Translations under genes and position numbers: made by a program | Source: Desulfobacteraceae bacterium | Lineage (GTDB): Bacteria; Desulfobacterota; DSM-4660; Desulfatiglandales; Desulfatiglandaceae | Length of the DNA: 64,000 nucleotides | Direction: 5' to 3' | NCBI GenBank assembly: GCA_016783065.1 | Contig: JADHXI010000001.1 | Coordinates: 23,610 to 87,609, forward strand | The notes under the pieces: generated by a model | Database searches by the model: none | What the model was told of the DNA's origin: nothing | What the model saw: the letters and a program-made list of their open reading frames with translations, nothing else | In this document: positions 44,352-64,000 of the stretch, in pieces | How positions within the stretch are numbered: the first letter of the stretch is position 1 | How the letters are laid out: every line of letters starts with the position of its first letter

Positions 44352-44451
44352 AACGTTTCTCTCATTTTATTTATTTATCATTTACCCAAAGCCAAAAAAA
44401 GCTGGGCCGGGGCCTGGCATCTCTCCCCGTCCCAGCTCAAGAAGCCTGGCT

Positions 44452-49168: not shown

Positions 49169-49194
49169 TTAATACCCCAGACAGGAGTAATGAC

Positions 49195-50166: not shown

Positions 50167-50224
50167 TCCGGCGGGTTCTAATATTTTTGACCGCAATTTA
50201 TCTTTTTGAGGATGAGTGAATATT

Positions 50225-51592
50225 ATGTCAACGAAGATCATAATGCCCCAGGCCGGGCAGGATATAACGGAAGGAAGGGTTGTAAAGTGGCTAAAGGCTG
50301 AAGGAGACACCGTCAAACAGGGTGAACCGATCTGCGAAGTGGAGACGGAAAAAGTCGTCTTCGAGGTTGAATCACCGGCAGACGGGGTCCTCTTGAAGAT
50401 CATTGTTCCTGACGGGAAAAAGACCGAGATATTTGCGACCATCGGCGTGGTGGGCGAGCCGGGGGAAGCCATTGATATGACCGAATTTCTCTCAGATGAT
50501 AGAAAGGAAGAAAAAGAGGTCGATGTCGCTGATATTCGGAAGCGTCTGACTCAAAAAGAAACGGGTGATACTGCAAAAATAAAGGTGTCAGGAAGGGCAA
50601 GAAAGCTGGCGGAAAAGAAAGGGGTTGACCTTACCACAATTGAGGGCACCGGGCCCGGTGGCCGCATCGTGGAAAAAGATGTCGAGCGAGCGGCAGCTGA
50701 GGCGGCGGACGTCAAGATAAGAGTGTCTCCCGTGGCCAGAAAGATGGCTGAGGAAAATGGTATCGACCTTGGCATCATGAAAGGCTCAGGACCTGGCGGC
50801 CGTATCATCAAGGAAGATGTACAGAGAGCCATAGAAGAAAAAGCATCTGAAAAAAAGATAACGGAGAAACCCGGCGCAGCAGCACTAAAAGAGGTGAAAG
50901 AGGTTGTGCCCATCAGAGGTGTCAGGCAGGTGATCTTTGAACGGATGCACCAGAGCCTGCAACAGTCCGCACAACTTACCGTCACCATGGAGGTTGATGC
51001 GGCGGAGCTGGTCCGTTTCCGGAGAGTGCTGGGCGAGGGCCCTGAAAATGCGGGCATACGCATTTCCTACAATGCGATCCTGGTGAAGATCTTGGCCCGG
51101 GTCCTCGAGGAGCACCCTCACCTCAATAGCAGTGTTATTGGCGACGAGATCTGGATCTGGGAATCGGTGAATCTTGGGGTGGCCGTGGATGTTGAAGATG
51201 GCTTGGTGGTTCCGGTTGTTCGTGATGCGAACAAAAAAGATCTGATCGCCATACAAGGAGAAATGGACGAACTGGCTGAAAAGGCGAAATCTAAAAAATT
51301 GATTCCGGATGATCTAAGAGGAGGGACCTTTACGCTGACCAATATGGGTTTTCTGGATATCGAGGCCTTTACTCCCATCCTTAACCCGCCCGAGACCGGA
51401 ATCCTGGGCGTGGGAAAGATCGTGGAGAAGCCGGTGGTGGAGAACGGAGATATCAAGGTAGGCCAGAGGATGACGCTGAGCCTGACCTTTGATCACCGCA
51501 TTGTTGATGGAGCGGATGGAGGCCGTTTCCTCAAGAGGGTAAAGGCATATATCGAAGAACCCTATCTTCTTCTGGCAGCCGGAAATAAATAG
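50225..51592 (+). CDS. dihydrolipoamide acyltransferase E2 (set 3) with two E3-binding domains
   Basis: Lipoyl VETEKVVFEV. Two PSBD copies (VSGRARKLAEKKGVDL..GPGGRI and VSPVARKMAEENGIDL..GPGGRI). Catalytic TFDHRIVDGA. ATG 50225 is preferred over GTG 50216 on SD spacing. Confidence 0.9.
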   Translation: MSTKIIMPQAGQDITEGRVVKWLKAEGDTVKQGEPICEVETEKVVFEVESPADGVLLKIIVPDGKKTEIFATIGVVGEPGEAIDMTEFLSDDRKEEKEVDVADIRKRLTQKETGDTAKIKVSGRARKLAEKKGVDLTTIEGTGPGGRIVEKDVERAAAEAADVKIRVSPVARKMAEENGIDLGIMKGSGPGGRIIKEDVQRAIEEKASEKKITEKPGAAALKEVKEVVPIRGVRQVIFERMHQSLQQSAQLTVTMEVDAAELVRFRRVLGEGPENAGIRISYNAILVKILARVLEEHPHLNSSVIGDEIWIWESVNLGVAVDVEDGLVVPVVRDANKKDLIAIQGEMDELAEKAKSKKLIPDDLRGGTFTLTNMGFLDIEAFTPILNPPETGILGVGKIVEKPVVENGDIKVGQRMTLSLTFDHRIVDGADGGRFLKRVKAYIEEPYLLLAAGNK

Positions 51593-52059: not shown

Positions 52060-53676
52060 TTATCCCTTCTCGTCCTTGGAAGCTGGCTGCTCATCACCTT
52101 CATTTGTAACTCCCATTATATTTATGCCCGCCAACCCGAGTTCCCGCAGAAGCGAATCCACGAGTGGCGCCTGGGCGCGGTAACGAAGCGCACTGTCGAA
52201 AACGCGGTCAGACATGGCGATGCCCTCTTTGGTCCGGTCGTTCCCCCAGAGGCCGTCGGCCTGCACTATTTTGATGCTGTCGATTTTCTCGAGCGGTTTG
52301 CCGCTTTCATGTATGATTTCCGCCAGATGATCGATGAGATAGTGGCGAATTTCGGCCGTGATCTGCTCGGGCGACAACAAGTTCTTAGCTTCGTTGAGGG
52401 CTCTCGTGCCAGCCGCCTCCACGCGGAATCGCACTTCGTTCCCTGCCGCCTTGATTTTCTCGGCCTCCGCTTGGTCCACAGCCGCAGCCTTTTCAGCTTC
52501 GGCCATGATCTTGAGGGCCAAGGCCTGCCTCTCGGCCTCGCGCGCCGCCTCGATCAGTTCCACTGCCTTCCGGCGTCCGGCGGCCTCCTTTTCCCGTGCT
52601 GTGAGCACGCGTTCCTCGGCGGTAACCAGATCGGCCCGCGCGGCCTCTGCTTCAGCCTTGGCCTCCGACTGGGCCTTAGAGCCGATGGAAACCTCGACAT
52701 CTCGAGCATGCTCGGCAAGCCGTATCATCTTCTCTTTCTCAATTTCGCGTTCACGGAGTGCCCGCTCTCGGGCAAGCCGCTCCTCCTCGATATCCCGTTC
52801 GGAAAGGATTTTGGCGATCTCAACCTTCTGACGCGCCACAATTTCGGCCTGGTCGGCCCCCTGTGACTGCTCTGCACGGCGCAGGGTGATCTCGGCCGTC
52901 TGCTCTGCCTTGCGGATTTCGATCTCCAATTGCTGCTCCAGGCGAGCGGACTGTTCTTCGAGTTCGAGGGCGAGGTTGAGCTTCTCGGTTTCCAGGTTCT
53001 TATTGCGGATTTGAATCCGTGTGTCTTGCTCGATATCGTTGCGCTTCTTTTTCCGGCTTTCGATCTTCTCGGTAAGATGCGTCAGACCCTCGGCGTCGAA
53101 GGCGTTGGAAGGATTGAAATAACTCATCTCCGTCTGGTCGAGTTGGGTTAGCGAGGCTGCCTCAAGCTCGAGACCGTTTCGGGACAGATCCTCCGCCACG
53201 GCCTCGCGCACCCTGCCTATGAAATTCTTCCGTTGCGCGTGCAGTTCCTCCATTGTCATCTCAGCAGCAATGGAGCGGATGGCATCGATGAACTTGCCCT
53301 CCACGATCTCGTTAAGCGCATCCGGGCGCATGGTGCGAGAGCCAAGCGTGCTGGCAGCGATTGATATGGCATTTAGATCGGGAGCCACATGAACATAGAA
53401 TTCTACCACTATGTCCATACGCATCCGATCCCTGGTGATGACCGATTGCTCATTCTGGCGCTGAACCTCCAGGCGTAAGGTCTTCATGTTGACCTCTATC
53501 ACCTCATGCAACACAGGGATGACCACGGCGCCTCTGTTTTTGACGATTTTTTCACCTCCGAAGCCTGTCCGGACGAAGGCGATCTCCTTGCTGGCGCGCT
53601 TGTAAAAAATAAAGAAGAGCACCACTAGTGCGATGGCCACAAGGATCAAAACAATGATGGTAGCTGACACAGACAT
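52060..53676 (-). CDS. flotillin / SPFH (band 7) domain protein
   Basis: GAGAGGTGG SD. N-terminal TM helix, SPFH core, and a long Ala/Glu-rich coiled-coil (EAEKAAAVDQAEAEKIKAAG). Confidence 0.8.
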   Translation of the reverse strand: MSVSATIIVLILVAIALVVLFFIFYKRASKEIAFVRTGFGGEKIVKNRGAVVIPVLHEVIEVNMKTLRLEVQRQNEQSVITRDRMRMDIVVEFYVHVAPDLNAISIAASTLGSRTMRPDALNEIVEGKFIDAIRSIAAEMTMEELHAQRKNFIGRVREAVAEDLSRNGLELEAASLTQLDQTEMSYFNPSNAFDAEGLTHLTEKIESRKKKRNDIEQDTRIQIRNKNLETEKLNLALELEEQSARLEQQLEIEIRKAEQTAEITLRRAEQSQGADQAEIVARQKVEIAKILSERDIEEERLARERALREREIEKEKMIRLAEHARDVEVSIGSKAQSEAKAEAEAARADLVTAEERVLTAREKEAAGRRKAVELIEAAREAERQALALKIMAEAEKAAAVDQAEAEKIKAAGNEVRFRVEAAGTRALNEAKNLLSPEQITAEIRHYLIDHLAEIIHESGKPLEKIDSIKIVQADGLWGNDRTKEGIAMSDRVFDSALRYRAQAPLVDSLLRELGLAGINIMGVTNEGDEQPASKDEKG

Positions 53677-53721
53677 TTATCCACCTCTCTTTAGTGTTCG
53701 CGTTAGAATGCTTTCCGCACA

Positions 53722-54159
53722 TCAACCCCCTAGATGCTTCTTTAGTCCGTCGAAGCCAGCCTGGAAAACATCACGGCTAATGAAGCTTGCCATTTCTTGC
53801 TCTTTGCCAGGTGTGGTCTCAAACTCCGCATTCCATTCGCCAAAGGTTCGATTGCCGTCGGTCACAGGGGTAAACTTGAGCTTAGCCACGAAGTTGTTCA
53901 GATCAAGCCCTGATTCGATGATCGCATAGGAGAAGCTGTAGTCGTAGTCCGACAGCGATAGCAGTTGCTCGCGTATGCGTGTATCGTCAGCGATATGGTA
54001 GCTGCGAATGCACCCTATTGCGTCGCTGGGCCTGCCGCCTTCGATCGTGCTGCGGGCAACCAGGGGGTGCCAGCTCGGCATGTCGTTGAAGTCCCTCACA
54101 ACCGCCCATACTTCGTCGGCTTTTGCTTCTATCACCGAACTAACGAAAACCTTGCTCAT
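53722..54159 (-). CDS. SRPBCC (START/Bet v1-like) ligand-binding protein
   Basis: GAGGAG SD. 145 aa. VWAVVRDFNDMPSWHP is a typical SRPBCC N-terminal block. Confidence 0.7.
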   Translation of the reverse strand: MSKVFVSSVIEAKADEVWAVVRDFNDMPSWHPLVARSTIEGGRPSDAIGCIRSYHIADDTRIREQLLSLSDYDYSFSYAIIESGLDLNNFVAKLKFTPVTDGNRTFGEWNAEFETTPGKEQEMASFISRDVFQAGFDGLKKHLGG

Positions 54160-54338
54160 TGATCCGTCTCCTCTATCAGCCGGTCACCCCTTGGCGGCAG
54201 CATCGGACCGGCGGGGGTTCTGGCATAGCGCAATCGTCGCCCCTGTGAAAGCCCTGAAAATCCGGGCCCGACATTATCCAGTGCTCAGGGCTCTCCACTT
54301 TCGACCGCACCGTTCCCTCTCGTTTGTCCTTTGGTTCA

Positions 54339-56528
54339 TCAAGTTTCGCGCATGATTTCGTTAAAGTTACTGACCAGGGCATCAGCGAACGTAGGGTCGT
54401 TGATGTGGTAGGGCAGCCGGATCAGCCGGCGCTTGTCCGTTTGTTTGACCGTGCGCTCGATGGCGTCGAATAGGGCAGCGTTGGCCTCAGGATCGTGAAA
54501 CGGTTTGCCCGGCAGGTCCTGGAGGTCAAGTCCCCCTTCCGGTATGAGGAACCGCACAGGCCCGTTCATCTGGTTCAGCTTGCGTCCGACCCATTCTCCG
54601 ATTCGAGCGCTCTCCTCCGCCGTGGTGCGGAACGCCGTCACTTGCGGATTGTGCCGATAGAGGTTTCTTGACCGGTATTTCTCCGGCACCGTATCCGGCG
54701 CTCCGAAGTTCACAATCTCTAACCCACCGCAGGACCCCACATAAGGGATGCCCGTACGGATCATGGCGCCCAATCGGTCCTCGCCGGCGCTCAAGATACC
54801 CCCCATGTGCAGGTCGCAGATCTCCGAAGTGGTCACGTCGATGACGCCCGCCATAATGCCGGATTCCACCAGTTTCTCCATGGAACGGCCGCCCGTGCCG
54901 GTGGCGTGGAAGACCAAGCAGTCATACTTGTGCTCCAGCTTGCGGGTAACCAACTCTACGCATGGCGTGGTCACGCCGAACATGGTCAGGCCGATGGCGG
55001 GCTTGTGGTGCTCGCCCTTGGGTTTTTTGCCCATCATCATGCCCGCTAGGGCGTTGGCGGCGTTGGCCAGCACCCGCTCCGATATCCGGTTTATCCCGGA
55101 GATGTCGGTCACGGAATACAACATGCAGATGTCGGACGCCCCCACGTAGGGCGCGACGTTGCCGCTAGCCACCGTAGAAACCATGATTTTGGGAATCCCC
55201 ACGTTCAGCCCTTGCATGCCCGGTGTGGTTAGGGCCGTGCCTCCGGACCCGCCGAGTCCGATCACCCCGCCGACATCCGTTTGTGAGGCTATATAATGCG
55301 TGAACGCATCGGCCATGGCGGTCACCGCGCTGCCCCGTTCCCCTGTGAACACCGCATCGGCTCCGTCCGGATGGTACTTGGCCACTTCCTGCGGTCGCAC
55401 GTCGGCTGGCGAGGGCTGGCCAGAGGTGCTGAGGTCCACGGTCACCGCACGCACTCCCTGGGAGGCGATGATATTGCGGACGAAGGATAGTTCCCGATTT
55501 TTGGTGTCGAAGGTGCCGGCCACATAGGCCGCGCTGTGAGAGAGCGAGGCCTCAGGGACAGCTGGCGGTGAAACTTCATCGACCGCGCCTCTTAGCCCGC
55601 CTTCGGCCATCAAGTTGGGCACCCGCCCCCATCGCGTAATCTGTTTGGCGATGCCGGCCCGGCTCTGTTCAGACTGGCGCCGTTCAATCAGGGGATTACC
55701 ATAGGACCAACGGTTGGGAAACTTGGGTACGCTCATGTATTTCGCATCGGTGGCGACAACCTCGCTCGTTTCGCGGCGGGGTGGCATCCGCGCGGCATCC
55801 GGCGCGGACTCCTCTTCATCAGATACCGCTTCCTCCGCCTTGGCGCTGATACCGAGCAGGCGTTGCTGCAGGGAACGATCGACTGCCAGGGTTGCGGAGT
55901 CCAGTTCCGTTTCAATTCGACCGTTGACCATGACCGCCAAGCGCTTGGCGACCTTTGTGGCCACACCCAGATTCTGTTCTACAAGAAGGACTGCCAAATC
56001 CTCTTCCTCTGCCAGGCGGAGGAGCAGAGTTTCCATTTGTTCCACGATTAGGGGAGCGAGCCCCTCCGTAGGCTCGTCCATGATCAGAAGTGTTGGATTC
56101 GCCACCAACGCCCGGCCGATGGTCAGCATCTGTTGCTCGCCGCCGGAAATCTGGTTGCCACCGTGGGTCCGACGTTTGGAAAGGGGCGGGAAGACCTCGT
56201 ATATGAGCTCGATGCTCCAGGGACCACCGCCCTTTGCGGCCAGCCTGAGGTGCTCATTAACCGTAAGTGACGGCCAGACACGCCGCCCCTGGGGCACGTA
56301 GCCTACACCGAGATCCGCGATCCGGTAAGGGTGCAGGCCAAGGATCTCCTGTCCATCCAGGCGCACGCTCCCCTCTGCAGTGCGCAACAGACCCATTATG
56401 GCGTTGCAGAGGGTCGTTTTGCCCATGCCATTGCGCCCGACAATACCCAGGACACCATGACGCTTCAAGGTGAAGGACACCCCTTGCAACACATGGATAT
56501 GACCGTAGAAGACGTGAAGGTCCTCCAC
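54339..56528 (-). CDS. fusion protein: LivF-type ABC ATPase domain + Tm-1-like (UPF0261) ATP-binding domain
   Basis: Single 729-aa frame with a GTG start. The N-terminal ~235 aa carry Walker [17 protein letters not shown] and [12 protein letters not shown] ~90-aa linker follows. The C-terminal ~400 aa begin [20 protein letters not shown], with GLGGSGGT and FHATGTGG, as in UPF0261 proteins. Confidence 0.75.
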
Positions 56529-56559
56529 GACTAGAATCTCGTCCGCATTATATTCTGAC

Positions 56560-57342
56560 CTAGCGATGACTTTCCCCCAGATAGATAGCCTGAACGTCGG
56601 GGTCTTCCTGTATCTCGGAGGGTGAGCCCTCCTTGAACACCCTACCGTTTTCCATGATCGTGACGTTTTCGACGACTTTTAGAGCGACATCGAGGTCGTG
56701 CTCGATGATTATAAAGCCGATATGAGACGGAAGTCCATTCAGCATAGACATGAGATCGGTACGTTCCGCTGCGGACAATCCGGCTGCAGGCTCGTCCAGA
56801 AGGAGTAACCGCGGCGCCCCCGCCAGGGCCATGCCGATCTCCAATTGTCGTTGCTGGCCGTGCGACAGCGCGGAAACGATCAGATTCAACACCTCCTCCA
56901 GATGCACGAACCGGGCCATGTTCTCTGTCTGCTCTATAGCGGGGTCGTCGGCTCCGGGCCGGCGGAACGAGAACCGACCGCGGCTCACGCCGCGCTGGGC
57001 CAGATAAAGATTGTCCCGAACCGACAGATTATTGAACAACAGGGAATTCTGATAAGTTCGTCGCAGACCTCGCCGGATCCGCTCGTGGGGAGGAAGCTCT
57101 GTGATATCCTCCCCGAAAAACGTGATTCGGCCGCTGGTGGGCGGAAAGTCGCCGGTGATGGCGTTAAAGAGGGTCGTCTTGCCCGCGCCGTTGGCCCCGA
57201 GCACGGCACGCCGCTCACCGGCCTGGACGTTCATGGACACGTCATTTAGCGCCACCAGTGCACCGAAGGTCCGTCCTACGCCCCGGAGCTCCAGGGCGTA
57301 GGGGGATCCGACAAAGCTTTGGGCCTTTCCACTATCCTTCAC
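56560..57342 (-). CDS. LivG-type ABC transporter ATP-binding protein
   Basis: Walker [10 protein letters not shown] and Walker [15 protein letters not shown] start. Confidence 0.85.
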
Positions 57343-57369
57343 TGCCGACAGCTCTTGACGCCCAATCCT

Positions 57370-58620
57370 CTAATTACAGGGAGGATTGTTGCGACCAACC
57401 GGTCCGAGGGCCAGGAACTCTTTGCGATCCATTCCCAGAGTCTGGTTCACCTGCGGAACGACCTTGACCACCTTGCTGTAGAGAACACCATCTGGGCGTT
57501 CCGCGACTTCCGTGATGAACATATCGGCTATGGCCTGTCGATTCTCGTCAAGCCTTACTACGCCCGAAGGGGTTTGCAGCTCGATTTTGGACAGGGTCTC
57601 CCGGAACGCCTTATGGTTGTTGGACAGGTCGCCGTTCACCTTATCAAGGGCGGTCAGACAGGCCACTGTGCTCACATAGTAGCCCCACGCGAAAACGGAA
57701 GGAGACGGAAAACCCTTCGGAAAGGCGGCCTTATATTCGGCAACGAACTTCTTCCAACTGGGGGTGTCCAGGTTGTCCGCCATGGCGCTCCCCGACGGGG
57801 TGCCGATCATGTACGTCTTGCGTCGGCCCTTGGAGCTCAGAACGCTCTGGTCGATAGTAACAGTGCCGCCGACCATAGGCTTGTCGCCGCCCGCTTGTTC
57901 ATACTGGCTCAGGAAGTTAACCGCATCCGAGCCGCCCAGGGCCACGAAGATGGCGTCGATGTCATCCGGAATGGAGGCCACGATCGTGCTGTAGTCCTTG
58001 TTGCCGACCGGCACCCAGAAGCGCTTGACCACCTTACCCCCGGCCTTACAGTAGCCCAGCAGGAATCCCATGACATTGGTGTATGCAAAAGAGTAATCCT
58101 CTGCGACGGTGACGATCTTCTTGTAGCCCTTGACCTGGACGACATACTCGCCGACCCCAGCCATGAACTGCACCCCGTCGCCGGTGAACCGGAAGAAGTT
58201 AGGGGCCGGGTTTCGCAGGGTGGTGTCCTGGGCCGCAGAGATGCCGTTGAAAAACGTCACCTGAGGCTGGGTATGGGCATAATCTTTCACGGCAATGCCT
58301 TCCGAGCCTGAGAGCGGGCCAATGACGATATCGACTTTATCCTGCTCCACCAGCTTGCGCGCCGCCCGGGTGGCACTGTCGGGGGTGGCGTCCGTCGACA
58401 TGGTGTAGAGCTTGATCTTCTTCCCGGCCACGGTGTAGTTCCACTGCTGCAGGGCAAGCTTGACACCGCGCATGCCATCCTGGCCAAGCACGGCGAAAGG
58501 GCCTTCAAGCGTCGCCATTGCACCGATTTTGATGACACCGTCGGCCTGGGATGTCACGGGCAGACACAGACTCACCGCCAAAGCTGCACAGATAATCAAA
58601 ACTCCTAACGCTTTCTTCAT
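57370..58620 (-). CDS. ABC substrate-binding protein (LivJ/K-like type 1 periplasmic binding fold)
   Basis: Signal peptide MKKALGVLIICAALAVSLCLPVTSQA. IKIGAMATLEGPFAVLG is typical of Peripla_BP_6. Confidence 0.8.
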   Translation of the reverse strand: MKKALGVLIICAALAVSLCLPVTSQADGVIKIGAMATLEGPFAVLGQDGMRGVKLALQQWNYTVAGKKIKLYTMSTDATPDSATRAARKLVEQDKVDIVIGPLSGSEGIAVKDYAHTQPQVTFFNGISAAQDTTLRNPAPNFFRFTGDGVQFMAGVGEYVVQVKGYKKIVTVAEDYSFAYTNVMGFLLGYCKAGGKVVKRFWVPVGNKDYSTIVASIPDDIDAIFVALGGSDAVNFLSQYEQAGGDKPMVGGTVTIDQSVLSSKGRRKTYMIGTPSGSAMADNLDTPSWKKFVAEYKAAFPKGFPSPSVFAWGYYVSTVACLTALDKVNGDLSNNHKAFRETLSKIELQTPSGVVRLDENRQAIADMFITEVAERPDGVLYSKVVKVVPQVNQTLGMDRKEFLALGPVGRNNPPCN

Positions 58621-58792
58621 GGTTTCCCTCCTTTTGAGAATTTGAAAGTTTCAGCCTAACCGGGCGTTGCATTAAAGCTTCTTAGTATCGTTACGCCCGT
58701 ACCTCCCTCATCCACAATTTGCATTGATCTTAGTGGTTTGTCTTCAACTCCATCCTACCAAAAGCCCGTCGTTCCCGCACCTCGATGGCGAT

Positions 58793-59794
58793 TTAATGAG
58801 TCGCAGGTGCGGTCCATTGCCTTAATTTCTGCCAGAGACCGAGAAGCCCGTCGGGTGAGAACAGCACAATGGCCAGGAACACCGCCCCGATCAGCAGGTT
58901 AAACCGTTCGCTGGCGATTAAGTCAATGGCGAAGTTCTCCAGCAGAGTGAACAAGACGGCGCCGATAAAGGCGCCCACCGGGTGGCCCAGACCGCCGATC
59001 ACCGCAATGACCAGGATGTCGATGGTGGGTCCGATACCGATAGAGCCCGGCGAGATGCGTCCGTTGAGCCAGATCATCAGTACGCCGCCAAACGAGGCGA
59101 TGAGGGCGGCGACGGTGTAAGCCAGAATTCGGTGGGCTCTCACGTTGAAGCCGAGAGCCTGCATGCGCCGATCGTTATCCCTGATCCCCTGCAGCGAGAG
59201 ACCGAAGGTGGACCGCCGAAGATAAACCACCACAAAGTAGGCGACGGCCACCACCGCCAGGCTAAGATAATAAAAGGGCACGGGATCTCGCCAATTCACC
59301 CCCCCGATGACCGGTGGTTTGAGGCCCGCGAATCCGTTCCAACCGTTTAGTATGTTGTAGTTTTGGCGGGCGAAATAATAAAAACCCACGGCGATGGCCA
59401 GCGTGATCATGATTGTGTAAATGCCCGTAGTTTGGACCGAAATCGCGCCGATCAGGGTGCCAAAGAGGGTGGCTATGACGATGGCCAGGATGACCGCCGC
59501 CAACCAAGGCCAGCCCAACCCCATGTTGAAGCTGTTGACCCCCAGCACGGCCACCGTGTACCCGGCGCAACCCGCCACACTGACCTGGGCCAGGGAAACC
59601 ATCCCTCCGTATCCGGCCAGGAAGGTCAGGCTCAGGGCGATCATGCCCAGGATCAGCGACTGGGCGCCGATTTGTACGGTCCAGAAGGGCGATGCGATCC
59701 AGGGATAGACCAGCAGGAACACAAAGACGAGTACGTGCCATAGCACGTCAGCCTGGCTTGTGCCACGTATCACCTGTGCGTTGCTTCCCCTCAT
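58793..59794 (-). CDS. LivM-type ABC permease
   Basis: Highly hydrophobic 333 aa. 1-nt TGATG overlap with the upstream permease. Confidence 0.8.
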   Translation of the reverse strand: MRGSNAQVIRGTSQADVLWHVLVFVFLLVYPWIASPFWTVQIGAQSLILGMIALSLTFLAGYGGMVSLAQVSVAGCAGYTVAVLGVNSFNMGLGWPWLAAVILAIVIATLFGTLIGAISVQTTGIYTIMITLAIAVGFYYFARQNYNILNGWNGFAGLKPPVIGGVNWRDPVPFYYLSLAVVAVAYFVVVYLRRSTFGLSLQGIRDNDRRMQALGFNVRAHRILAYTVAALIASFGGVLMIWLNGRISPGSIGIGPTIDILVIAVIGGLGHPVGAFIGAVLFTLLENFAIDLIASERFNLLIGAVFLAIVLFSPDGLLGLWQKLRQWTAPATH

Positions 59795-60654
59795 CAGGCG
59801 CGCCTCCCAAGGAGGCCTTGTGGCCGGAAGGCCAGGGTGAGCACCATGATAATGAAGGTGTACACAACCCCGTATGTGGGCGAGTAGGCTAGACCAAACT
59901 GCTCCGCAAGGCCGATGAGAAGCGCGCCCAGCGCCGCGCCACCCACGCTGCCCATGCCCCCGACGATGACCACGACCAAAGAGGCCAGCAAATATCTCAG
60001 GTCTTCGCCCGGCGCGATGGAAAGGGCGGATCCGCCCACCACCCCTGCAAAACCTGCGAGACCGGCACCAATGGTGAACACGATTGCAAAGACGCGGTGC
60101 ACGTTGACGCCTGTGGCGGCCAGCATGTCGCGATCGTCCACGCCTGCGCGGATCATCATCCCGACCCGTGTCTTGTCGAGAAATAACCAGAGCGCCAACC
60201 CGATCACAACGGCGATAAGGAGGATGAACAAGCGGTAAGTGGTATAGACTTTTATAATGGGAAGGCGGGTGACTCCGTAAAGCGCGTCCGGTATTTCGAA
60301 CTGGTAAGTCACACCTCCCCAGACGGCTAGCATAACATCGGCCAGTATGATCGAAATACCGATAGTCACCAAGGTCTGGCGCAGATCCTGACCTTCCATG
60401 AAGCGAAAAATGCAGACCTGCAATAGCAACCCCAGAATTGCTATCGCAACGAACCCGCCGGCGGCGCCCAGAACCCAGGAGCCGGTGGCCTCCGCCACGT
60501 CGAAACCGACGTAAGCCCCAAGCAGGAAAAGCGAGCCGTGGGCCAAGTTGACGTTGCGCATGACCCCAAACACGAGGGTGAACCCGCTGGCCACCAGGAA
60601 ATAGAGGGCGGCAAGCGTAAGTCCGTTCAAGATGGTCATAATGAAGAGCTTCAT
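59794..60654 (-). CDS. LivH-type ABC permease
   Basis: MKLFIMTILNGLTLAALYFLVASGFTLVFGVMRNVNLAHG is the canonical LivH N-terminus. Confidence 0.85.
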   Translation of the reverse strand: MKLFIMTILNGLTLAALYFLVASGFTLVFGVMRNVNLAHGSLFLLGAYVGFDVAEATGSWVLGAAGGFVAIAILGLLLQVCIFRFMEGQDLRQTLVTIGISIILADVMLAVWGGVTYQFEIPDALYGVTRLPIIKVYTTYRLFILLIAVVIGLALWLFLDKTRVGMMIRAGVDDRDMLAATGVNVHRVFAIVFTIGAGLAGFAGVVGGSALSIAPGEDLRYLLASLVVVIVGGMGSVGGAALGALLIGLAEQFGLAYSPTYGVVYTFIIMVLTLAFRPQGLLGRRA

Positions 60655-60689
60655 TATGGGCTCCCCTAACCTGTTGGGTGGTATTTGTT

Positions 60690-60967
60690 TCAGTCGATCA
60701 TACGTAGGACTTCCAAGGCGTTGTCCGAGTCAGTGATGAGTATGTGAATGACCCCGGTACGCAATGCGCCAAGAATCGCTTTTGACTTTCCCTCTTTACT
60801 AACCGCAGCAATGACCGTAAGGTTCAGAGCAGTCGTTGAAGTTCTTGACGTGAAATGCCCAATTTTCGGGCTACTTCGGCCTGGATCTTCCTTTCTACAG
60901 AATAGAGGGACGCTGGGTGGGTGAGGAAGTCGAAAAAATTAAGTTTTTCACTTGAGGTTTGAGGCAT
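60690..60967 (-). pseudogene. internally deleted SorC/DeoR-type sugar-binding regulator remnant
   Basis: The minus strand reads MPQTSSEKLNFFD...AEVARKLGISRQELQRLL* (HTH fragment). A different frame then reads ..LTVIAAVSKEGKSKAILGALRTGVIHILITDSDNALEVLRMID* (typical SorC C-terminus). About 250 aa of the middle are missing. Confidence 0.5.
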
Positions 60968-61140
60968 GGTCACAGCCCATTAGCGATTAAAGTTGGCAAT
61001 ATCCAAAGCTGCTATAAATATCTTCTAGCCCGTTTGTGAGCCTTTGCTTATACTATAAATATTTTTGATATAATAAGGTGTCTTCTCTGTCAAGGATTAC
61101 TTGCTTGAAAAGCATCTAGCGATTATCTGCGAGGAAGTCA

Positions 61141-61155
61141 TTGACAAACTGTCAA
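61141..61155. promoter_or_regulatory. perfect 6-3-6 palindrome TTGACAAACTGTCAA (possible operator / -35 box)
   Basis: Seen directly. It lies in the ~970-bp divergent region between the liv operon and the PEP-hydrolase-like genes. Confidence 0.3.
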
Positions 61156-61624
61156 AACAAATCCTCATGGCCAAAGCTGGGCGACACCCTTTTCCTGAAT
61201 GATCTTACTTAAGGCTCTCCCGAATTAGGCCTTGACAGGGGTCCTACAACTATTTATTAGAAATGAATAGCTACCATACACTATATGAGCATTTGCTTTC
61301 AATGCATGGAGTGACCCTGCCCATTGCTAGTCGAAACCTGACGGCCACTTTCTTGCGGTGCGGTGGGCTACATGTTTGGACATCATTTAGATAATGAATA
61401 TCTAAAGGCCTTGGATGTGTTGCCCCTGGCCGACGAAATAACCTAGGGTAGCACGGCTGCCATCCCACGCCTAAATTTCGGCATTTCGCCTTGGAATTTA
61501 TCGATATATGTATTAAAGAATAGGATGTTATAGGGCTCCTGGAAGAATGTAAATCAAAATGATTTGCGGGGACTTATGGTGCTTTGACCTAACGGGCACA
61601 GAAAGCAAGTGGAGGAGGGAAAAA

Positions 61625-62491
61625 ATGGCCAAAAAATACGGTCGCGACGAAGTGAACGCTCGGCTTAGGGAAACGCTGAAGGCCGGAAAATCGATCATCC
61701 TCGGTGGAGCAGGGGACGGCTTCACAGCCAAGCTGGAGGAAAAAGGAGGCCTGGACATAATCGGGATATACAACTCCGGACGATTCAGGCACTTTGGCGC
61801 TGGTTCCCTGTCCGGTTTGATGCCGTTGGGACGTAACCAGGATATGGTTATGGACTACGCCGCCGAGGTCCTTTCCATGGTGAAGGAGACCCCGGTGATC
61901 GCCGGATTTTGCGCGCAGGATACCAGGACGCTTTGGGAGCATTGGTTCAATACGCTCGCATCGATGGGTGTCTCAGGCTTCATGAACTTCCCCACCGTGG
62001 GTCTCATCGATGCAGACTCCCGCTACCGGAATAACCTGGAGGAGTCGGGACTCGGCTTCGATAGTGAGGCAGAAGTGCTAAGGATCGCCCATGACTTAGG
62101 ATTCTTCACTGTTGGCTATTGCTTTACTCCTGACGAGGCCAAGATGATCGCCAAAGCCGGAGTTGATATCATTGGGTGTCACGTTGGCCTGACCTCGGGA
62201 GGCCTGATTGGTGCGGGAACGGTCATGACACTGGATGAGAGTGTCAAGGTGACCAACCAACTGATCGCCGCGGCAAAGGAAGTACGTCCGGCCGGGGACT
62301 TCATCGCCATGACCCATGGAGGACCCATGGAGGACCCCGAGAGCACCGCCTATGTCATGGAGCGCACCGAAGCCGTCGGCTACCTGGGGGCCTCCAGCAT
62401 CGAGCGCACCCCCGTGGAGCCCGCAGTTATCAAAGTCTGCCAGGAATTCAAGAATATACCGGTCAACATACCAGACTGGTTGAAGCTGTAA
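61625..62491 (+). CDS. PEP-hydrolase-like TIM-barrel protein (PF09370-type, Tm-1 C-terminal-domain homolog), paralog 1
   Basis: GGAGGAGGG SD before ATG 61625. GGAGDGFTAKLEEKGGLDIIGIYNSGRFRHFGAGSLSGLMPLG, FMNFPTVGLID and HGGPMEDPE match my recollection of this family. Confidence 0.75.
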   Translation: MAKKYGRDEVNARLRETLKAGKSIILGGAGDGFTAKLEEKGGLDIIGIYNSGRFRHFGAGSLSGLMPLGRNQDMVMDYAAEVLSMVKETPVIAGFCAQDTRTLWEHWFNTLASMGVSGFMNFPTVGLIDADSRYRNNLEESGLGFDSEAEVLRIAHDLGFFTVGYCFTPDEAKMIAKAGVDIIGCHVGLTSGGLIGAGTVMTLDESVKVTNQLIAAAKEVRPAGDFIAMTHGGPMEDPESTAYVMERTEAVGYLGASSIERTPVEPAVIKVCQEFKNIPVNIPDWLKL

Positions 62492-62591
62492 GTTCTATCT
62501 GGATTTCAAGGAGGGGCCTTCATCCGAGGCCTGGATGAATCGCAAATGTCAGGCCTCGGGAGGTACCAGTCCAATTTATTAGGGGGATCTC

Positions 62592-63437
62592 ATGGCTAAA
62601 AAATATAGCAGGATAGAGGTGTTGGACCGTCTTCACCGACAACTCGAGGCGAAAAAGCCTTTGCTTATGTTTGGCGCGGGTATCGGTTTGACCGCCAAGT
62701 GCGCCGAATTGGGCGGGGCTGACCTGATCGCAGTCTATTCCACTGCCATGTATCGTATGATGGGACAACACACCCTAATGGCCTTCTTACCGTACTCCAA
62801 CGCCAATGAACACGTAGCCAAGATGGCCTGTGAGATCCTCCCGGCGGTCAAAGAAACTCCCTGTATCGTCGGCATAGGCGCCCATGACCCCAGCCTGAAC
62901 CAGGAAAGGTTCATGGATGAAATGATGGCGCTGGGCTTTTCCGGCGTAACCAACGAGCCCTTTGCGGGCATTTACGGTCCTGATTTCGCGGCCCAATTGG
63001 AATCTGCCGGGCTGGGCTTTTCCAAGGAAGCGGAAATGATTGCGCTGGCTCACAGTAAGGGAATATTTACCGTTGGTTGGGCCTTTAACCCGGAAGAGGC
63101 CCGCAAAATGGCCGAGGCCGGGGCGGATGTGGTTGGTGCCCTGGTGGGCGTAACGGCTGGGGGGCTGAGTGGCCCTAAGGATTCATTGACGTTAGAGAAA
63201 GCTACAGAGGCGGTTCAGGCCATGTACCAGGCAGCCAGGGAGGTGAATCCCGACGTCATCGTCCTCACCCACGGGGGGCCATTCAAGGATCCGGAAACGG
63301 CCGAATATTCCATTTTACATTCCGGCGCAGTTGGCTACGCCGCTGGATCCAGCGGGGAGCGACTGCCCGTTGAAAACGCGATCGTTGAAGTTACGAAATC
63401 TTACAAGAATATGAAACTGGACATGGGGTCCAAATGA
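62592..63437 (+). CDS. PEP-hydrolase-like TIM-barrel protein, paralog 2
   Basis: MAKKYSRIEVLDRLHRQL.., FGAGIGLTAKCAELGGADLIAVYSTAMYRMMG, THGGPFKDPE. Collinear with paralog 1. Confidence 0.75.
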   Translation: MAKKYSRIEVLDRLHRQLEAKKPLLMFGAGIGLTAKCAELGGADLIAVYSTAMYRMMGQHTLMAFLPYSNANEHVAKMACEILPAVKETPCIVGIGAHDPSLNQERFMDEMMALGFSGVTNEPFAGIYGPDFAAQLESAGLGFSKEAEMIALAHSKGIFTVGWAFNPEEARKMAEAGADVVGALVGVTAGGLSGPKDSLTLEKATEAVQAMYQAAREVNPDVIVLTHGGPFKDPETAEYSILHSGAVGYAAGSSGERLPVENAIVEVTKSYKNMKLDMGSK

Positions 63438-63527
63438 GTCTAACCGACCTTTTTCTACCCTTGTGACCGTGCTTTGTCATAACTTGTCAGGAATGTAGGG
63501 TTTTTAAGGAAAGGAGAGTGTTTGCGC

Positions 63528-64000
63528 ATGAAGGTGGTGGCCTTCAGCGGTAGCGCCCGCAAGGATGGCAACACCGCTATTCTGGTGCGGGAGATTTTTA
63601 AAGAGTTAGTGCAGCATGGCCTCGAGACCGAGCTGGTGCAGCTTGCCAGTATAGAAATCAAGGCCTGCCTCGCCTGCTACCGGTGCTTTGAAAACAAAGA
63701 TCAACACTGCTCGGTCGAAGACGACGAGCTTAACCAGTTCATTGATAAGATGCTGGCCGCAGAGGGAATTATCCTGGCCTCGCCCACCTACATCGGAGAC
63801 GTCACCTCTATTATGAAAGCCTTGATTGACAGGGCGGGGATGGTTTCACGTGCCAACGATAACATGCTGAGGCGCAAGGTGGGAGCGGCGGTGGCCGTGG
63901 CCAGCTGGGGCGGGGCCATCCACACCTTCGACTCCCTGAATCATTTTTTTCTAATCGGCGAGATGATAGTCGTGGGGTCGAGTAATTGGAACCTGGGCTT
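63528..64000 (+). CDS. iron-sulfur flavoprotein (Isf)-like FMN reductase, 3'-truncated by the window end
   Basis: AAGGAGAG SD. MKVVAFSGSARKDGNT, Cys motif CLACYRCFENKDQHC (C-x2-C-x2-C-x7-C), ASPTYIGD. The frame is open to base 64000. Not in the ORF track because no stop is reached. Confidence 0.7.
   Translation, partial: MKVVAFSGSARKDGNTAILVREIFKELVQHGLETELVQLASIEIKACLACYRCFENKDQHCSVEDDELNQFIDKMLAAEGIILASPTYIGDVTSIMKALIDRAGMVSRANDNMLRRKVGAAVAVASWGGAIHTFDSLNHFFLIGEMIVVGSSNWNLG

What the first reader, a model, noticed from the sequence alone, without database searches (positions are those of the whole stretch)
61625..63437. Tandem pair of PEP-hydrolase-like TIM barrels completes a split 'Tm-1' architecture around a Liv-type transporter
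Tomato Tm-1 is an N-terminal UPF0261 domain plus a C-terminal PF09370 TIM barrel. In bacteria, as far as I recall, the two halves are usually neighbouring genes of unknown function. Here the N-half is fused to the transporter ATPase at 54339-56528. The C-half is present twice in tandem: 61625-62491 and 62592-63437, collinear paralogs both starting MAKKY.R.EV..RL. The pair is transcribed divergently from the liv operon and is followed by an Isf-type flavoprotein. An SRPBCC ligand-binding protein and a flotillin are co-directional downstream of the fusion gene. Together this looks like a self-contained uptake-plus-unknown-chemistry module. PF09370 is related to the PEP mutase/isocitrate lyase-type barrels, so the chemistry may involve C-C/C-P or enol-phosphate steps.
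Basis: partly seen in the sequence, partly recalled or inferred. Interest (0 to 1): 0.7.

Follow-up and report, generated by a model that had tools for sequence, protein, structure and literature searches.

The report
Transporter-tethered kinase module with paired barrels
The two adjacent barrel-enzyme genes are real, ancient and non-redundant, and they belong to a widespread but undescribed bacterial gene module in which a nutrient-import pump carries a kinase-like domain on a flexible tether; the substrate is still unknown.

Summary
Both ORFs (61625-62491, 62592-63437) are full-length PF09370 barrels, 41% identical. The LivF-like ATPase at 54339-56528 is fused to a complete UPF0261 (Tm-1 N-half) domain.

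In 83 related loci the operon livH-livM-SBP-livG-livF::UPF0261-PF09370-flotillin-SRPBCC is strongly conserved: fusion 67/75, PF09370 next door 74/76, flotillin 59/64, SRPBCC 61/64.

Two corrections:
1. The pair is not a local duplication. A and B are ancient, distinct clades with 70-80% identical orthologs in other phyla. Elsewhere they accompany RuBisCO-like proteins, a stand-alone UPF0261, a ComB-like phosphatase and a SorC regulator. The window has lost the canonical operon-type barrel, so the locus is a hybrid of the two cluster types.
2. Kinship with PEP-mutase/ICL barrels is not specific.

UPF0261 now has one demonstrated activity: MarK, an ATP-dependent phenol kinase (2025). Its ATP-site Lys and substrate-site His residues are invariant in the fusion family.

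Best reading: import, then phosphorylation by the tethered domain, then processing by the barrels. This is inference from context only. The substrate is unknown; hints point to phenolic or enolic compounds. Nothing in the searchable literature describes the module.

The parts
61625..62491 (+). PF09370 TIM barrel, paralog A (288 aa)
   Evidence: PF09370 E 1.3e-91. 100% identical to a Desulfobacteraceae MAG protein. Orthologs are 82-87% identical in L001/L084/L085 and 81% in L090. Forms its own deep clade. Keeps 87 of 145 canonical conserved positions, including R53, D129, R135, H186 and H231. AF2 model pTM 0.82, with 2P10 as the only specific fold match.
62592..63437 (+). PF09370 TIM barrel, paralog B (281 aa)
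   Evidence: PF09370 E 3.3e-96. 41% identical to A. PDB 2P10 E 4e-61. Orthologs are 66-97% identical and include Spirochaetota and Syntrophomonadaceae. Separate deep clade. Has lost the canonical R53, D129, R135 and H186.
63528..64000 (+). FMN_red-family flavoprotein with CxxCxxCx7C motif (Isf-like); cut by the window end
   Evidence: PF03358 E 8e-33. 69-87% identical to the 191-aa gene that follows barrel B in L001/L084/L085/L093/L094/L097, where an IV-Photo-type RuBisCO-like protein comes next.
60693..60973 (-). Relic of a SorC/DeoR-type regulator (internal deletion of about 690 bp; pseudogene)
   Evidence: tblastn finds only aa 1-42 and 279-320 of the L001 regulator, in different frames. 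blastn against L084 shows that L084 4960-5649 is missing at the window 60822/60828 junction. The gene is intact (320/345 aa) in L084/L085.
59794..60654 (-). LivH-type permease
   Evidence: PF02653 E 1e-32; conserved in position in 50/60 loci together with LivM, SBP and LivG.
58793..59794 (-). LivM-type permease
   Evidence: PF02653 E 3e-35; conserved.
57370..58620 (-). Periplasmic substrate-binding protein (Peripla_BP_6)
   Evidence: PF13458 E 3e-56. Nearest structures are 4ZPJ (2e-39), then 4EY3 and 4EVQ (4e-25, 9e-20). Classical LIV-binding protein scores only 5e-6 and UrtA sits far below its cut-off.
56560..57342 (-). LivG-type ATPase
   Evidence: ABC_tran + BCA_ABC_TP_C.
55848..56528 (-). 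LivF/UrtE-type ATPase domain of the fusion protein (residues 1-227)
   Evidence: ABC_tran E 2.6e-28 and PDB 1JI0 E 5e-45. Walker A, Q-loop, signature and Walker B motifs are invariant in 62 fusion homologs. The true start may lie slightly upstream.
55545..55847 (-). Disordered linker of about 100 residues (228-328) with a conserved P.RW..GNP motif
   Evidence: pLDDT 25-30 and no secondary structure. Length 81-114 aa, poorly conserved apart from the RW/GNP motif in 121 homologs.
54339..55544 (-). UPF0261 domain (N + C subdomains; Tm-1 N-half / MarK-like) of the fusion protein
   Evidence: PF06792 E 1e-59 and PF23189 E 1e-88. Tm-1 3WRY E 2e-90 and MarK 9MPY E 2e-55. NCBIfam NF002673 scores 629 bits against a cut-off of 520. 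GTFDTK and FHATGTGG are invariant.
53722..54159 (-). SRPBCC (Polyketide_cyc2) ligand-binding protein
   Evidence: PF10604 E 9e-24; present in 61/64 related loci.
52060..53676 (-). Flotillin (SPFH/Band 7 + Flot)
   Evidence: PF01145 + PF15975; present in 59/64 related loci.

Best explanation
**What it is (well supported).** The locus is a two-unit metabolic module on a GC-rich island of a Desulfobacteraceae genome.
- **Unit 1 (- strand).** A HAAT-family ABC importer (LivH, LivM, SBP, LivG, LivF). Its LivF ATPase carries a complete UPF0261 domain on a disordered tether of about 100 residues. An SRPBCC ligand-binding protein and a flotillin follow.
- **Unit 2 (+ strand, divergent).** Two ancient, non-redundant PF09370 TIM barrels (A and B) and an Fe-S/FMN-type flavoprotein. 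By synteny with the closest relatives, an IV-Photo-type RuBisCO-like protein lies just beyond the window edge.
- **Origin.** The module merges two recurrent cluster types. One is the widespread livHM-SBP-livG-livF::UPF0261-PF09370-flotillin-SRPBCC operon. The other is an 'RLP + UPF0261 + two PF09370 barrels + SorC (± ComB-like phosphatase)' cluster.
- **Losses here.** The window has lost the canonical single barrel. Its SorC regulator is destroyed by an internal deletion.

**How it most likely works (inferred).**
1. The SBP-dependent importer brings in a small organic compound bearing a phenolic or enolisable hydroxyl.
2. The tethered UPF0261 domain phosphorylates it with ATP, by analogy with MarK. 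Uptake is thereby coupled to chemical capture.
3. Barrels A and B, then the flavoprotein and the RLP, act on the phospho-intermediate. The invariant HGGP and G-x-S-S-x-E-R loops of the barrels sit at β7/β8, where many TIM barrels bind a substrate phosphate. All RLPs characterised so far use phosphorylated substrates.
4. A keeps the canonical polar residues and is the likelier catalyst. B has lost four of them and may have a changed specificity or serve as a partner subunit.
5. SRPBCC and flotillin suggest a hydrophobic ligand and a membrane-organised assembly.
For: **Domain assignments:**

**The fusion is real and conserved**
- More than 120 full-length homolog clusters at 58-91% identity.
- NBD and UPF0261 lie in one ORF in 67/75 loci.
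- Unfused but adjacent livF | UPF0261 | PF09370 in L107, L124, L136 and L149, and an unfused arrangement in L074. This is a Rosetta-stone pattern.

**Module conservation**
- PF09370 immediately downstream 74/76; flotillin 59/64; SRPBCC 61/64; all four liv genes 50/60.

**Kinase plausibility**
- MarK is an ATP→ADP kinase of phenolics (PMC12624787).
- MarK K16 (Tm-1 K20), H219, H304 and G195 align to identical residues in the fusion. These sit in motifs that are invariant across the fusion family.
- The NBD motifs are also intact.

**Tether**
- Linker pLDDT below 30 and pTM 0.53.

**A and B are ancient and non-redundant**
- Tree. Cross-phylum orthologs at 66-90% identity, against 41% between A and B. 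Different retention of conserved polar residues.

**Link to RLP clusters**
- L090: SorC-ComB-RLP-UPF0261-A-B.
- L089: RLP-barrel-ComB-UPF0261-barrel.
- Also L098-L100, L102 and L148.
- Relatives sharing the window's layout carry B-FMN_red-RLP (L001, L084, L085, L093, L094, L097).
- That RLP is IV-Photo type: 1TEL E 7e-184.

**PF09370 binds a pathway ligand**
- Sigma-54 activators with a PF09370 sensor domain sit next to the module in 7 loci.

**Substrate hints**
- After 4ZPJ (2e-39), the SBP's next-nearest solved relatives are 4EY3 and 4EVQ (4e-25, 9e-20). From memory, these are R. palustris aromatic-acid-binding SBPs; RPA0668 binding of benzoate and 4-hydroxybenzoate is shown in PMC3223731.
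- Canonical operons are flanked by PcaD-like, HpaG-like, quinone-reductase-like and VOC genes.
Against: - No biochemical data exist for any member of this fusion family or for any PF09370 protein.
- The fused domain is much closer to Tm-1 (no known catalysis) than to MarK. Wild-type MarK itself is nearly inactive without the E16K change (PMC12624787).
- MarK works without a PF09370 partner, and its specificity residues H348, F283 and I285 are not conserved here.
- In MarK the ATP and substrate sites are about 25 Å apart and the phosphotransfer mechanism is unresolved (PMC12624787).
- Substrate hints conflict. The canonical operon has an aromatic-catabolism flavour. The window lineage has a sugar-phosphate flavour: a SorC regulator, an RLP and FGGY kinases nearby.
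- Units 1 and 2 are divergently transcribed, so co-regulation here is unproven, and the shared regulator is a pseudogene.
- The RLP is inferred from relatives and is not in the window.
- The IV-Photo association is seen in only one lineage.
- The PF09370 phosphate-binding idea rests on generic TIM-barrel resemblance.
Confidence: 0.5

Rival explanations
1. Regulatory rather than catalytic. The UPF0261 domain is an ATP- or metabolite-sensing module that gates the transporter, as in trans-inhibition by the C-terminal domains of MalK, MetN, ModC or OpuA. The PF09370 proteins would then be ligand-binding signal-transduction partners and not enzymes.
For: - PF09370 serves as the sensor domain of sigma-54 activators beside the same module. 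It was originally named a 'TIM-barrel signal transduction' domain (PMC5028733).
- Tm-1, the closest solved relative, binds ATP without known catalysis.
- C-terminal regulatory domains on ABC ATPases are a well-known theme (established knowledge).
- Barrel B has lost several conserved polar residues.
Against: - The sensor-domain copies have lost the two canonical histidines (H186 to N, H231 to E) that stand-alone barrels keep. This suggests the stand-alone forms need them for chemistry.
- A 100-residue disordered tether with no predicted packing on the NBD is unlike the compact regulatory domains of MalK and MetN.
- MarK shows the fold can catalyse phosphotransfer, and the corresponding residues are invariant here.
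- The cluster partners are enzymes: RLP, ComB-like phosphatase and flavoprotein.
Confidence: 0.25
2. Two independent systems that are merely neighbours. The A-B-flavoprotein-RLP unit is a self-contained pathway unrelated to the Liv::UPF0261 operon, and their adjacency reflects joint carriage on a mobile island.
For: - The units are divergently transcribed.
- The canonical barrel partner of the fusion operon has been lost here.
- L094 has an additional stand-alone UPF0261 and a ComB-like gene beyond the RLP.
- The whole region is a compositional island.
Against: - The divergent arrangement around one SorC regulator is kept across relatives spanning 70-91% identity (L001, L084, L085, L091-L094).
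- Outside this lineage, in the loci with enough flanking sequence to judge, A/B-type barrels sit with a UPF0261 gene (L089, L090, L099, L100, L102, L148) or with a Liv transporter (L088).
- In the window, L084 and L085 the fused domain is the only UPF0261 in reach.
- 97% of genomes with PF09370 also encode UPF0261, and the two co-evolve (PMC5028733).
Confidence: 0.15
3. The pair is a recent tandem duplication of one barrel gene, giving redundant paralogs attached to an ordinary branched-chain amino-acid or urea importer.
For: Adjacent, collinear, same-length genes with similar N-termini. The NBD and SBP have their best, though sub-threshold, NCBIfam hits to UrtE and UrtA.
Against: - A and B are 41% identical to each other but 70-90% identical to their own orthologs in other phyla. 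They form separate deep clades.
- The SBP scores far below the UrtA and LivJ cut-offs: 72 bits against 493, and E 5e-6 to LIV-binding protein.
- The conserved extra genes (UPF0261, PF09370, SRPBCC, flotillin) are not part of Liv or Urt systems.
Confidence: 0.03

Closest known systems
Tomato Tm-1 / plant Tm-1-like proteins (UPF0261 + PF09370 'TBST' in one chain; PDB 3WRV-3WRY)
   Same: The same two families are combined. The fused UPF0261 domain is the closest sequence relative of the Tm-1 N-half (E 2e-90), with the ATP-contacting Lys conserved. The bacterial split, co-evolving gene pair is documented (PMC5028733).
   Different: Here the UPF0261 half is fused to an ABC-transporter ATPase and not to the barrel. 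The barrels are separate, duplicated and divergent, and lie on the other strand. Tm-1's known role (binding a viral replicase) is a plant-specific exaptation that says nothing about the bacterial function.
MarK (Saro_1862), Novosphingobium aromaticivorans multiple aromatic kinase (PDB 9MPY; PMC12624787)
   Same: UPF0261 fold with both subdomains (E 2e-55). The positions of the ATP-site Lys16, the phenol-oxygen ligands His219 and Gly195, and the stacking His304 hold identical residues. This gives a precedent for ATP→ADP phosphorylation of a small-molecule hydroxyl.
   Different: MarK is a stand-alone homodimer in an acetovanillone carboxylase (acvCDEF) operon, with no PF09370 partner and no transporter. 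Its specificity residues H348, F283 and I285 differ here (Q, I, N). Sequence identity is only moderate. Wild-type MarK needs E16K for good activity.
Mll9387 (PDB 2P10), structural-genomics PF09370 barrel labelled 'putative phosphonopyruvate hydrolase'
   Same: Clear homolog of both A and B (B: E 4e-61; A model: TM 0.77-0.83, 41% identity).
   Different: No function or ligand is established for 2P10. It belongs to the canonical type, whereas A and B are separate clades.
ABC importers with C-terminal accessory domains on the ATPase (MalK, MetN, ModC, OpuA)
   Same: An extra domain follows the nucleotide-binding domain of an SBP-dependent importer.
   Different: Those domains are compact, pack against the NBD dimer and act as sensors. 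Here the appendage is a 400-residue kinase-like two-domain enzyme fold on a disordered tether of about 100 residues. It comes with dedicated partner genes.
RLP-containing catabolic clusters with a small-molecule kinase (DUF1537 acid-sugar kinases with OiaX/OiaT-type RLPs in D-apiose pathways; MtnK/MtnW in methionine salvage). The DUF1537 and apiose details are from memory; the D-apiose role of RLPs is mentioned in PMC6389311.
   Same: The same logic of kinase + RLP acting on the phospho-intermediate + phosphatase + SorC/DeoR-type regulator, as in L089 and L090. The L090 RLP is nearest to the MtnW enolase, and the L084 RLP has its best (sub-threshold) NCBIfam hit to OiaX.
   Different: The kinase family is UPF0261, not DUF1537 or MtnK. 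Two PF09370 barrels are added. The RLPs fall below the curated cut-offs of all characterised RLP families. The RLP in the window's lineage is IV-Photo type, whose reaction is unknown (PMC5893883).

Membership tests
PF09370 (PEP_hydrolase / 'TIM-barrel signal transduction') | Full-length match to the Pfam model above the gathering score | tested here: met
   A scores 306.9 bits and B 322 bits against a cut-off of 33.8, covering model positions 1-267.
PF09370 (PEP_hydrolase / 'TIM-barrel signal transduction') | Fold of the only solved member (2P10) | tested here: met
   The AF2 model of A (pTM 0.82) superposes on 2P10 at TM 0.77-0.83, E 2.5e-22. B matches the 2P10 sequence at E 4e-61.
PF09370, canonical operon-linked clade (partner encoded directly after UPF0261) | Groups with the copies that lie immediately downstream of UPF0261 | tested here: not met
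   A and B branch outside the canonical clade. They keep only 87 and 77 of its 145 conserved positions. The canonical copy is present in L001 and L091-L094 but absent from the window.
Split Tm-1-like pair (UPF0261 + PF09370 encoded together) | Both UPF0261 subdomains (PF06792, PF23189) and PF09370 in one locus | tested here: met
   All lie within 9 kb. The same association is seen in 74/76 related loci and in 24/37 generic PF09370 loci.
MarK-type aromatic kinase | ATP-site Lys (K16) and phenol-binding His219, Gly195 and His304 | tested here: met
   The alignment to 9MPY shows K, H, G and H at these positions. GTFDTK and FHATGTGG are invariant in the fusion family.
MarK-type aromatic kinase | Acetovanillone-specific pocket (His348, Phe283, Ile285) and an acvCDEF carboxylase operon context | tested here: not met
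   Q, I and N occupy these positions. No acv-like carboxylase genes occur in the window or in any module locus inspected.
MarK-type aromatic kinase | ATP-dependent phosphorylation of a small-molecule hydroxyl | not testable with these tools
   Requires an enzyme assay.
HAAT-family (Liv/Urt-type) ABC importer | Two BPD_transp_2 permeases, two ATPases (LivG-like and LivF-like) and a Peripla_BP_6 SBP in one operon, with intact NBD motifs | tested here: met
   Walker A, Q-loop, signature and Walker B are invariant.
LivJ/LivK or UrtA substrate specificity | SBP reaches the curated equivalog score | tested here: not met
   UrtA scores 72 bits against a cut-off of 493, and LivJ-type 45 bits against 477. 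PDB LIV-binding protein scores E 5e-6, against 4e-25 for 4EY3.
PEP mutase / isocitrate lyase barrel superfamily | Specific structural or sequence affinity to ICL/PEPM members over other TIM barrels | tested here: inconclusive
   Methylisocitrate lyase, PanB and CPEP mutase appear at TM 0.49-0.54. IGPS, ThiG, TIM, ThiE and Pdx1 score equally well. The only extra Pfam hit is a sub-threshold NMO match.
Compact regulatory C-terminal domain of ABC ATPases (MalK/MetN type) | The extra domain packs directly on the NBD | tested here: not met
   Linker residues 228-328 have pLDDT below 30, and pTM is 0.53 with no confident inter-domain geometry. This is a prediction only.
IV-Photo RLP gene cluster | A RuBisCO-like protein of the C. 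tepidum / R. palustris RLP2 clade encoded in the same unit | not testable with these tools
   The window ends inside the flavoprotein gene. In all syntenic relatives with sequence beyond it (L001, L084, L085, L093, L094, L097) an RLP follows. The L084 protein matches 1TEL at E 7e-184.
Iron-sulfur flavoprotein (Isf) | FMN_red fold plus a compact N-terminal Cys motif | tested here: inconclusive
   PF03358 E 8e-33. A CLACYRCFENKDQHC motif is read in the sequence. The full-length L084 ortholog has no close solved homolog (best hit 7D38, E 6e-10). The Isf motif definition is from memory.

The most novel reading that the evidence does not exclude
The LivF::UPF0261 fusion defines an ABC-type 'group translocation' system. 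A small-molecule kinase tethered to the importer phosphorylates the substrate as it enters, and UPF0261 dimerisation and flotillin organise the complex in the membrane. In this Desulfobacteraceae lineage the phospho-product would feed a pathway of two specialised PF09370 barrels, an Fe-S flavoprotein and an IV-Photo RuBisCO-like protein. That would give the first concrete biochemical handle on PF09370 and on the long-unassigned IV-Photo RLP clade.
Probability: 0.22. Interest if true: 0.85.

Novelty: new variant of a known kind. Interest (0 to 1): 0.66.

Why it matters
- **Large families with almost no known function.** UPF0261 and PF09370 span bacteria, archaea, fungi and plants (Tm-1). Only one catalytic activity is known for UPF0261 (MarK, 2025) and none for PF09370.
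- **A defined context for experiments.** This work sets out a widespread eight-gene module (at least hundreds of species) in which UPF0261 is covalently tied to an ABC importer and always accompanied by PF09370, an SRPBCC protein and a flotillin. A dedicated SBP can be screened for the ligand. The module also occurs in cultured hosts such as Variovorax paradoxus, Azospirillum rugosum, Pseudorhodoferax sp. Leaf267, Billgrantia kenyensis, Rubrivivax sp. RP6-9 and Fodinicurvata.
- **A possible new transport mode.** If the tethered domain is a kinase, this would be an ABC counterpart of the vectorial phosphorylation seen in the phosphotransferase system (PTS).
- **A lead on RuBisCO-like proteins.** Paired PF09370 barrels and UPF0261 recur beside RuBisCO-like proteins of at least two clades, one of them IV-Photo. 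This offers a new, testable lead on an RLP clade whose reaction has been unknown for over twenty years.
- **An annotation error.** NCBI pipelines name the fusion proteins 'ABC transporter permease'.

Tried and rejected
- **Recent tandem duplication.** Rejected by the tree and by cross-phylum orthologs.
- **Relic of a sigma-54 activator.** I first read the 49-aa ORF at 60824-60973 as the HTH_8 remnant of a PF09370-sigma-54 activator. tblastn showed it is instead the N-terminus of a SorC/DeoR-type regulator with an internal deletion.
- **Regulatory signals.** A promoter/terminator scan of 60600-64000 found nothing above shuffled expectation. An Rfam scan of 60600-63600 found no riboswitch or sRNA.
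- **PEP-mutase/ICL affinity of PF09370.** The fold search could not separate it from generic TIM barrels.
- **DdaR/PA1196.** My recollection that it carries a PF09370 sensor was not supported by the literature search, where it appears in a PAS-domain survey. I dropped it.
- **Literature on the module.** Searches for UPF0261/PF09370/PF06792, and for RLP with phosphosulfolactate phosphatase and Tm-1, returned nothing on this module.
- **Finer names for accessory proteins.** NCBIfam has no model for A, B or the SRPBCC protein. PDB sequence searches for the SRPBCC and the flavoprotein were uninformative.
- **Docking of the two fusion domains.** The AF2 model of the full fusion gave no confident inter-domain geometry.
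- **My own ORF clustering.** In high-GC loci it produced spurious antisense clusters, which I ignored.


Full report
**1. Observation**

The ORFs are as described.
- 61625-62491 (288 aa, 'A') and 62592-63437 (281 aa, 'B') both match Pfam PF09370 over the whole model: E 1.3e-91 and 3.3e-96.
- They are collinear and 41% identical, E 3e-77.
- B matches the only solved family member, Mll9387 (2P10), at E 4e-61.
- The 61625 start is supported by a 100% identical 288-aa protein from a Desulfobacteraceae MAG and by uniformly 288-aa orthologs.
- 54339-56528(-) is one ORF of 729 aa: an ABC ATPase domain, then a linker of about 100 residues, then both UPF0261 subdomains, PF06792 and PF23189. It matches Tm-1 (3WRY, E 8e-90), MarK (9MPY, E 7e-55) and the LivF-like 1JI0.
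- LivG, a Peripla_BP_6 SBP, LivM and LivH lie upstream on the same strand. An SRPBCC protein and a flotillin lie downstream.
- After B comes an FMN_red flavoprotein (63528 to the window end) with a CxxCxxCx7C motif.

**2. The fusion and its operon are a widespread, conserved module**

- A protein search with the fusion returned more than 120 full-length clusters at 58-91% identity, all with the same three domains. They come from Desulfobacterales, Desulfobacula, Dongiaceae and Azospirillum among others. NCBI calls them 'ABC transporter permease'.
- A scan of species-representative genomes with a UPF0261-domain alignment found at least 589 relatives. The best 80 span Alpha-, Beta- and Gammaproteobacteria, Rokubacteria/Methylomirabilota, Desulfobacterales and Desulfuromonadales.
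- I scored neighbours by tblastn in 83 loci:

| Feature | Loci with it / loci with enough sequence |
|---|---|
| NBD and UPF0261 in one ORF | 67/75 |
| PF09370 immediately downstream, same strand | 74/76 |
| Flotillin | 59/64 |
| At least one SRPBCC | 61/64 |
| A second SRPBCC (usually fused to an MDR/quinone-reductase-like dehydrogenase) | 55/64 |
| All four other liv genes | 50/60 |

- Unfused forms keep the same order: livF | UPF0261 | PF09370 in L107, L124, L136 and L149, and a rearranged unfused version in Billgrantia (L074). This is the classic Rosetta-stone signature of a functional link.
- In a less biased sample of PF09370 genes from metagenomes, UPF0261 lies directly upstream in 24 of 37 loci with enough sequence. 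Five of those 37 loci carry Liv-type genes.
- The bacterial split, co-evolving pair itself was already documented (PMC5028733). The transporter fusion and the flotillin/SRPBCC company were not found in any paper I could search.

**3. The tandem pair is not a simple duplication**

- In a tree of 96 PF09370 copies, the operon-linked copies form one clade. A and B each form a separate deep branch, shared only with L001, L084 and L085. Sigma-54 sensor-domain copies lie further out.
- A and B each have orthologs at 66-90% identity in other phyla (Spirochaetota, Syntrophomonadaceae, Nitrospinaceae), while being only 41% identical to each other.
- Of 145 positions that are at least 93% conserved in the canonical clade, A keeps 87 and B keeps 77. 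B has lost R53, D129, R135 and H186. The sensor domains keep 43 and lack both H186 and H231.
- The ancestral layout in this Desulfobacterales group is [canonical barrel, A, B, FMN_red, RLP], divergent from [SorC, LivH, LivM, SBP, LivG, fusion, SRPBCC, flotillin]. This is seen in L001 and L091-L094, and partly in L097.
- The window, L084 and L085 have lost the canonical barrel.

**4. A second cluster type explains A and B**

- Outside this lineage, A/B-type barrels sit in clusters of another kind:
  - SorC - ComB-like phosphatase - RuBisCO-like protein - stand-alone UPF0261 - A - B (L090)
  - RLP - barrel - ComB-like - UPF0261 - barrel (L089, Syntrophomonadaceae)
  - variants in L098-L100, L102 and L148
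  - in one Spirochaetota genome, directly before a Liv transporter (L088)
- The RLP next to the flavoprotein in the window's syntenic relatives is of the IV-Photo clade: C. tepidum RLP 1TEL E 7e-184, and R. palustris RLP2 2QYG E 4e-171.
- The L089 and L090 RLPs are a different, MtnW/YkrW-like clade. They are 34-37% identical to the former and fall just below the NCBIfam cut-off.
- The reaction of Photo-clade RLPs is still unknown (PMC5893883; PMC6389311).
- The window locus is thus a hybrid of the transporter-fusion module and an RLP-type UPF0261/two-barrel cluster.
- It is a compositional island: its genes are 53-61% GC, against 50% for the rest of the window.

**5. Regulation**

- Relatives have an intact 320-345-aa SorC/DeoR-type regulator between the units.
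- In the window only its two ends remain (aa 1-42 and 279-320, in different frames). About 690 bp are deleted.
- Other lineages instead use a sigma-54 activator whose sensor is a PF09370 domain (L003, L019, L069, L073, L077, L086, L087). This implies that PF09370 binds a pathway metabolite.
- No promoter, terminator or Rfam signal stands out in 60600-64000.

**6. Mechanism**

- *Shown elsewhere.* UPF0261 can be an ATP→ADP kinase of phenolic hydroxyls (MarK, PMC12624787).
- *Shown here.*
  - The residues MarK uses are identical in the fusion: Lys16 at the ATP site (= Tm-1 K20), His219 and Gly195 on the phenol oxygen, and His304 stacking. They lie in motifs invariant across the family, GTFDTK and FHATGTGG.
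  - The MarK specificity residues H348, F283 and I285 differ, so a different substrate is expected.
  - The NBD motifs are intact.
  - The AF2 model shows two well-folded domains joined by residues 228-328 at pLDDT 25-30, with no confident packing and pTM 0.53. This is a tether and not a compact MalK/MetN-type regulatory domain.
- *Inferred.* The importer delivers a compound with a phenolic or enolisable hydroxyl. The tethered domain phosphorylates it. The barrels, flavoprotein and RLP then process the phospho-intermediate. The barrels' invariant HGGP and GxSSxER loops sit at β7/β8, where many TIM barrels bind a phosphate.
- *Speculative.* MarK and Tm-1 are homodimers, and a LivG/LivF transporter carries only one UPF0261 domain. 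Dimerisation would therefore bridge two transporters, which may relate to the conserved flotillin.

**7. Substrate hints (weak)**

- After 4ZPJ, the SBP's nearest solved relatives are 4EY3 and 4EVQ (E 4e-25 and 9e-20), ahead of LIV- or urea-binding proteins. As far as I recall, these are the R. palustris benzoate-derivative binding proteins. RPA0668 binding of benzoate and 4-hydroxybenzoate is documented in PMC3223731.
- Canonical operons are often preceded by GntR, an HpaG-like FAA-hydrolase, a PcaD-like α/β-hydrolase and an amidohydrolase. They are often followed by an SRPBCC::quinone-reductase-like fusion and a VOC protein. All score below curated cut-offs.
- The window lineage has instead a sugar-phosphate flavour: a SorC regulator, the RLP, and FGGY kinases, transaldolase and a sugar ABC system nearby.
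- The substrate class is therefore open.

**8. PEP-mutase/ICL claim**

The model of A (pTM 0.82) matches 2P10 at TM about 0.8. All other hits are generic TIM barrels at TM 0.45-0.56. IGPS, ThiG, TIM, ThiE and Pdx1 are interleaved with methylisocitrate lyase, PanB and CPEP mutase.

**9. Verdict**

- The finding is real, and its core interpretation is right and generalisable.
- The refinements are these. A and B are an ancient heteropair of RLP-cluster type, and the canonical barrel is lost. The regulator is dead. UPF0261 now has a kinase precedent.
- The module is a new variant built from known families. It is undescribed in the searchable literature and is directly testable in cultured bacteria.
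- The mechanism is inference, at confidence about 0.5. The architecture and conservation are solid.

Noticed in passing
window 60693-60973 (-): Pseudogene relic of a SorC/DeoR-type regulator. About 690 bp of the interior are deleted relative to the intact 320-aa gene in L084 and L085. Only aa 1-42 (as a 49-aa ORF) and aa 279-320 (in another frame) remain. The module may be deregulated in this organism.
   Followed up: yes
window 52060-64000: Compositional island. Module genes are 53-61% GC, against 50% for positions 1-52000. The livH/barrel-A intergenic region is 44% GC. This is consistent with horizontal acquisition.
   Followed up: partly
window 56526-56570 (-): The fusion ORF as listed starts at GTG 56528. 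However, the conserved first β-strand residues (EILVV) are encoded in frame just upstream, with no ATG/GTG/TTG before the previous stop, and homologs have about 11 more N-terminal residues. The true start may be a non-canonical codon (ATT at 56537 or ATC at 56567, which overlaps the livG stop).
   Followed up: partly
window 55545-55847 (-), fusion residues 228-328: The disordered linker is poorly conserved and varies in length (81-114 aa). It contains a short conserved P.RW..GNP motif (about residues 271-279), possibly a docking motif.
   Followed up: no
window 34579-35151 (+): A second FMN_red flavoprotein, 38-40% identical to the one after barrel B, lies immediately upstream of an FGGY-family kinase (35170-36720).
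   Followed up: no
window 27103-31583 (-) and 48170-51592 (+): Two separate sets of acetoin/2-oxoacid-dehydrogenase-type E1α, E1β and E2 genes. Also present: three FGGY kinases (35170-36720, 37796-39358, 39393-40988), a transaldolase-family gene, a CN-hydrolase and a sugar-type ABC system (41290-45987). The surroundings are a carbohydrate/polyol catabolic region.
   Followed up: partly
L003 3422-5146; L086 3032-4816; L087 160-1944; also L019, L069, L073, L077: Sigma-54 enhancer-binding proteins whose N-terminal sensor is a PF09370 domain sit beside the transporter-fusion module in several lineages. These sensor copies lack the two histidines that are conserved in stand-alone barrels.
   Followed up: partly
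L084 504-1799; L085 384-1679; L093, L094, L097, L001: An IV-Photo-clade RuBisCO-like protein (close to the C. tepidum RLP and R. palustris RLP2, whose reaction is unknown) follows barrel B and the flavoprotein in all syntenic relatives. It is probably just beyond the window's right end.
   Followed up: partly
L089 5649-10834; L090 5428-11773; L102; L148: A recurrent cluster holds SorC, a ComB-like (2-phosphosulfolactate phosphatase family) protein, an MtnW/YkrW-like RLP just below the curated MtnW cut-off, a stand-alone UPF0261 and two PF09370 barrels. It appears to be an undescribed RLP pathway.
   Followed up: partly
database entries P0011, P0027, P0052, P0082, P0101, P0114, P0117: NCBI annotation names the LivF::UPF0261 fusion proteins 'ABC transporter permease', although they have no membrane domain. 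This is a systematic misannotation.
   Followed up: no
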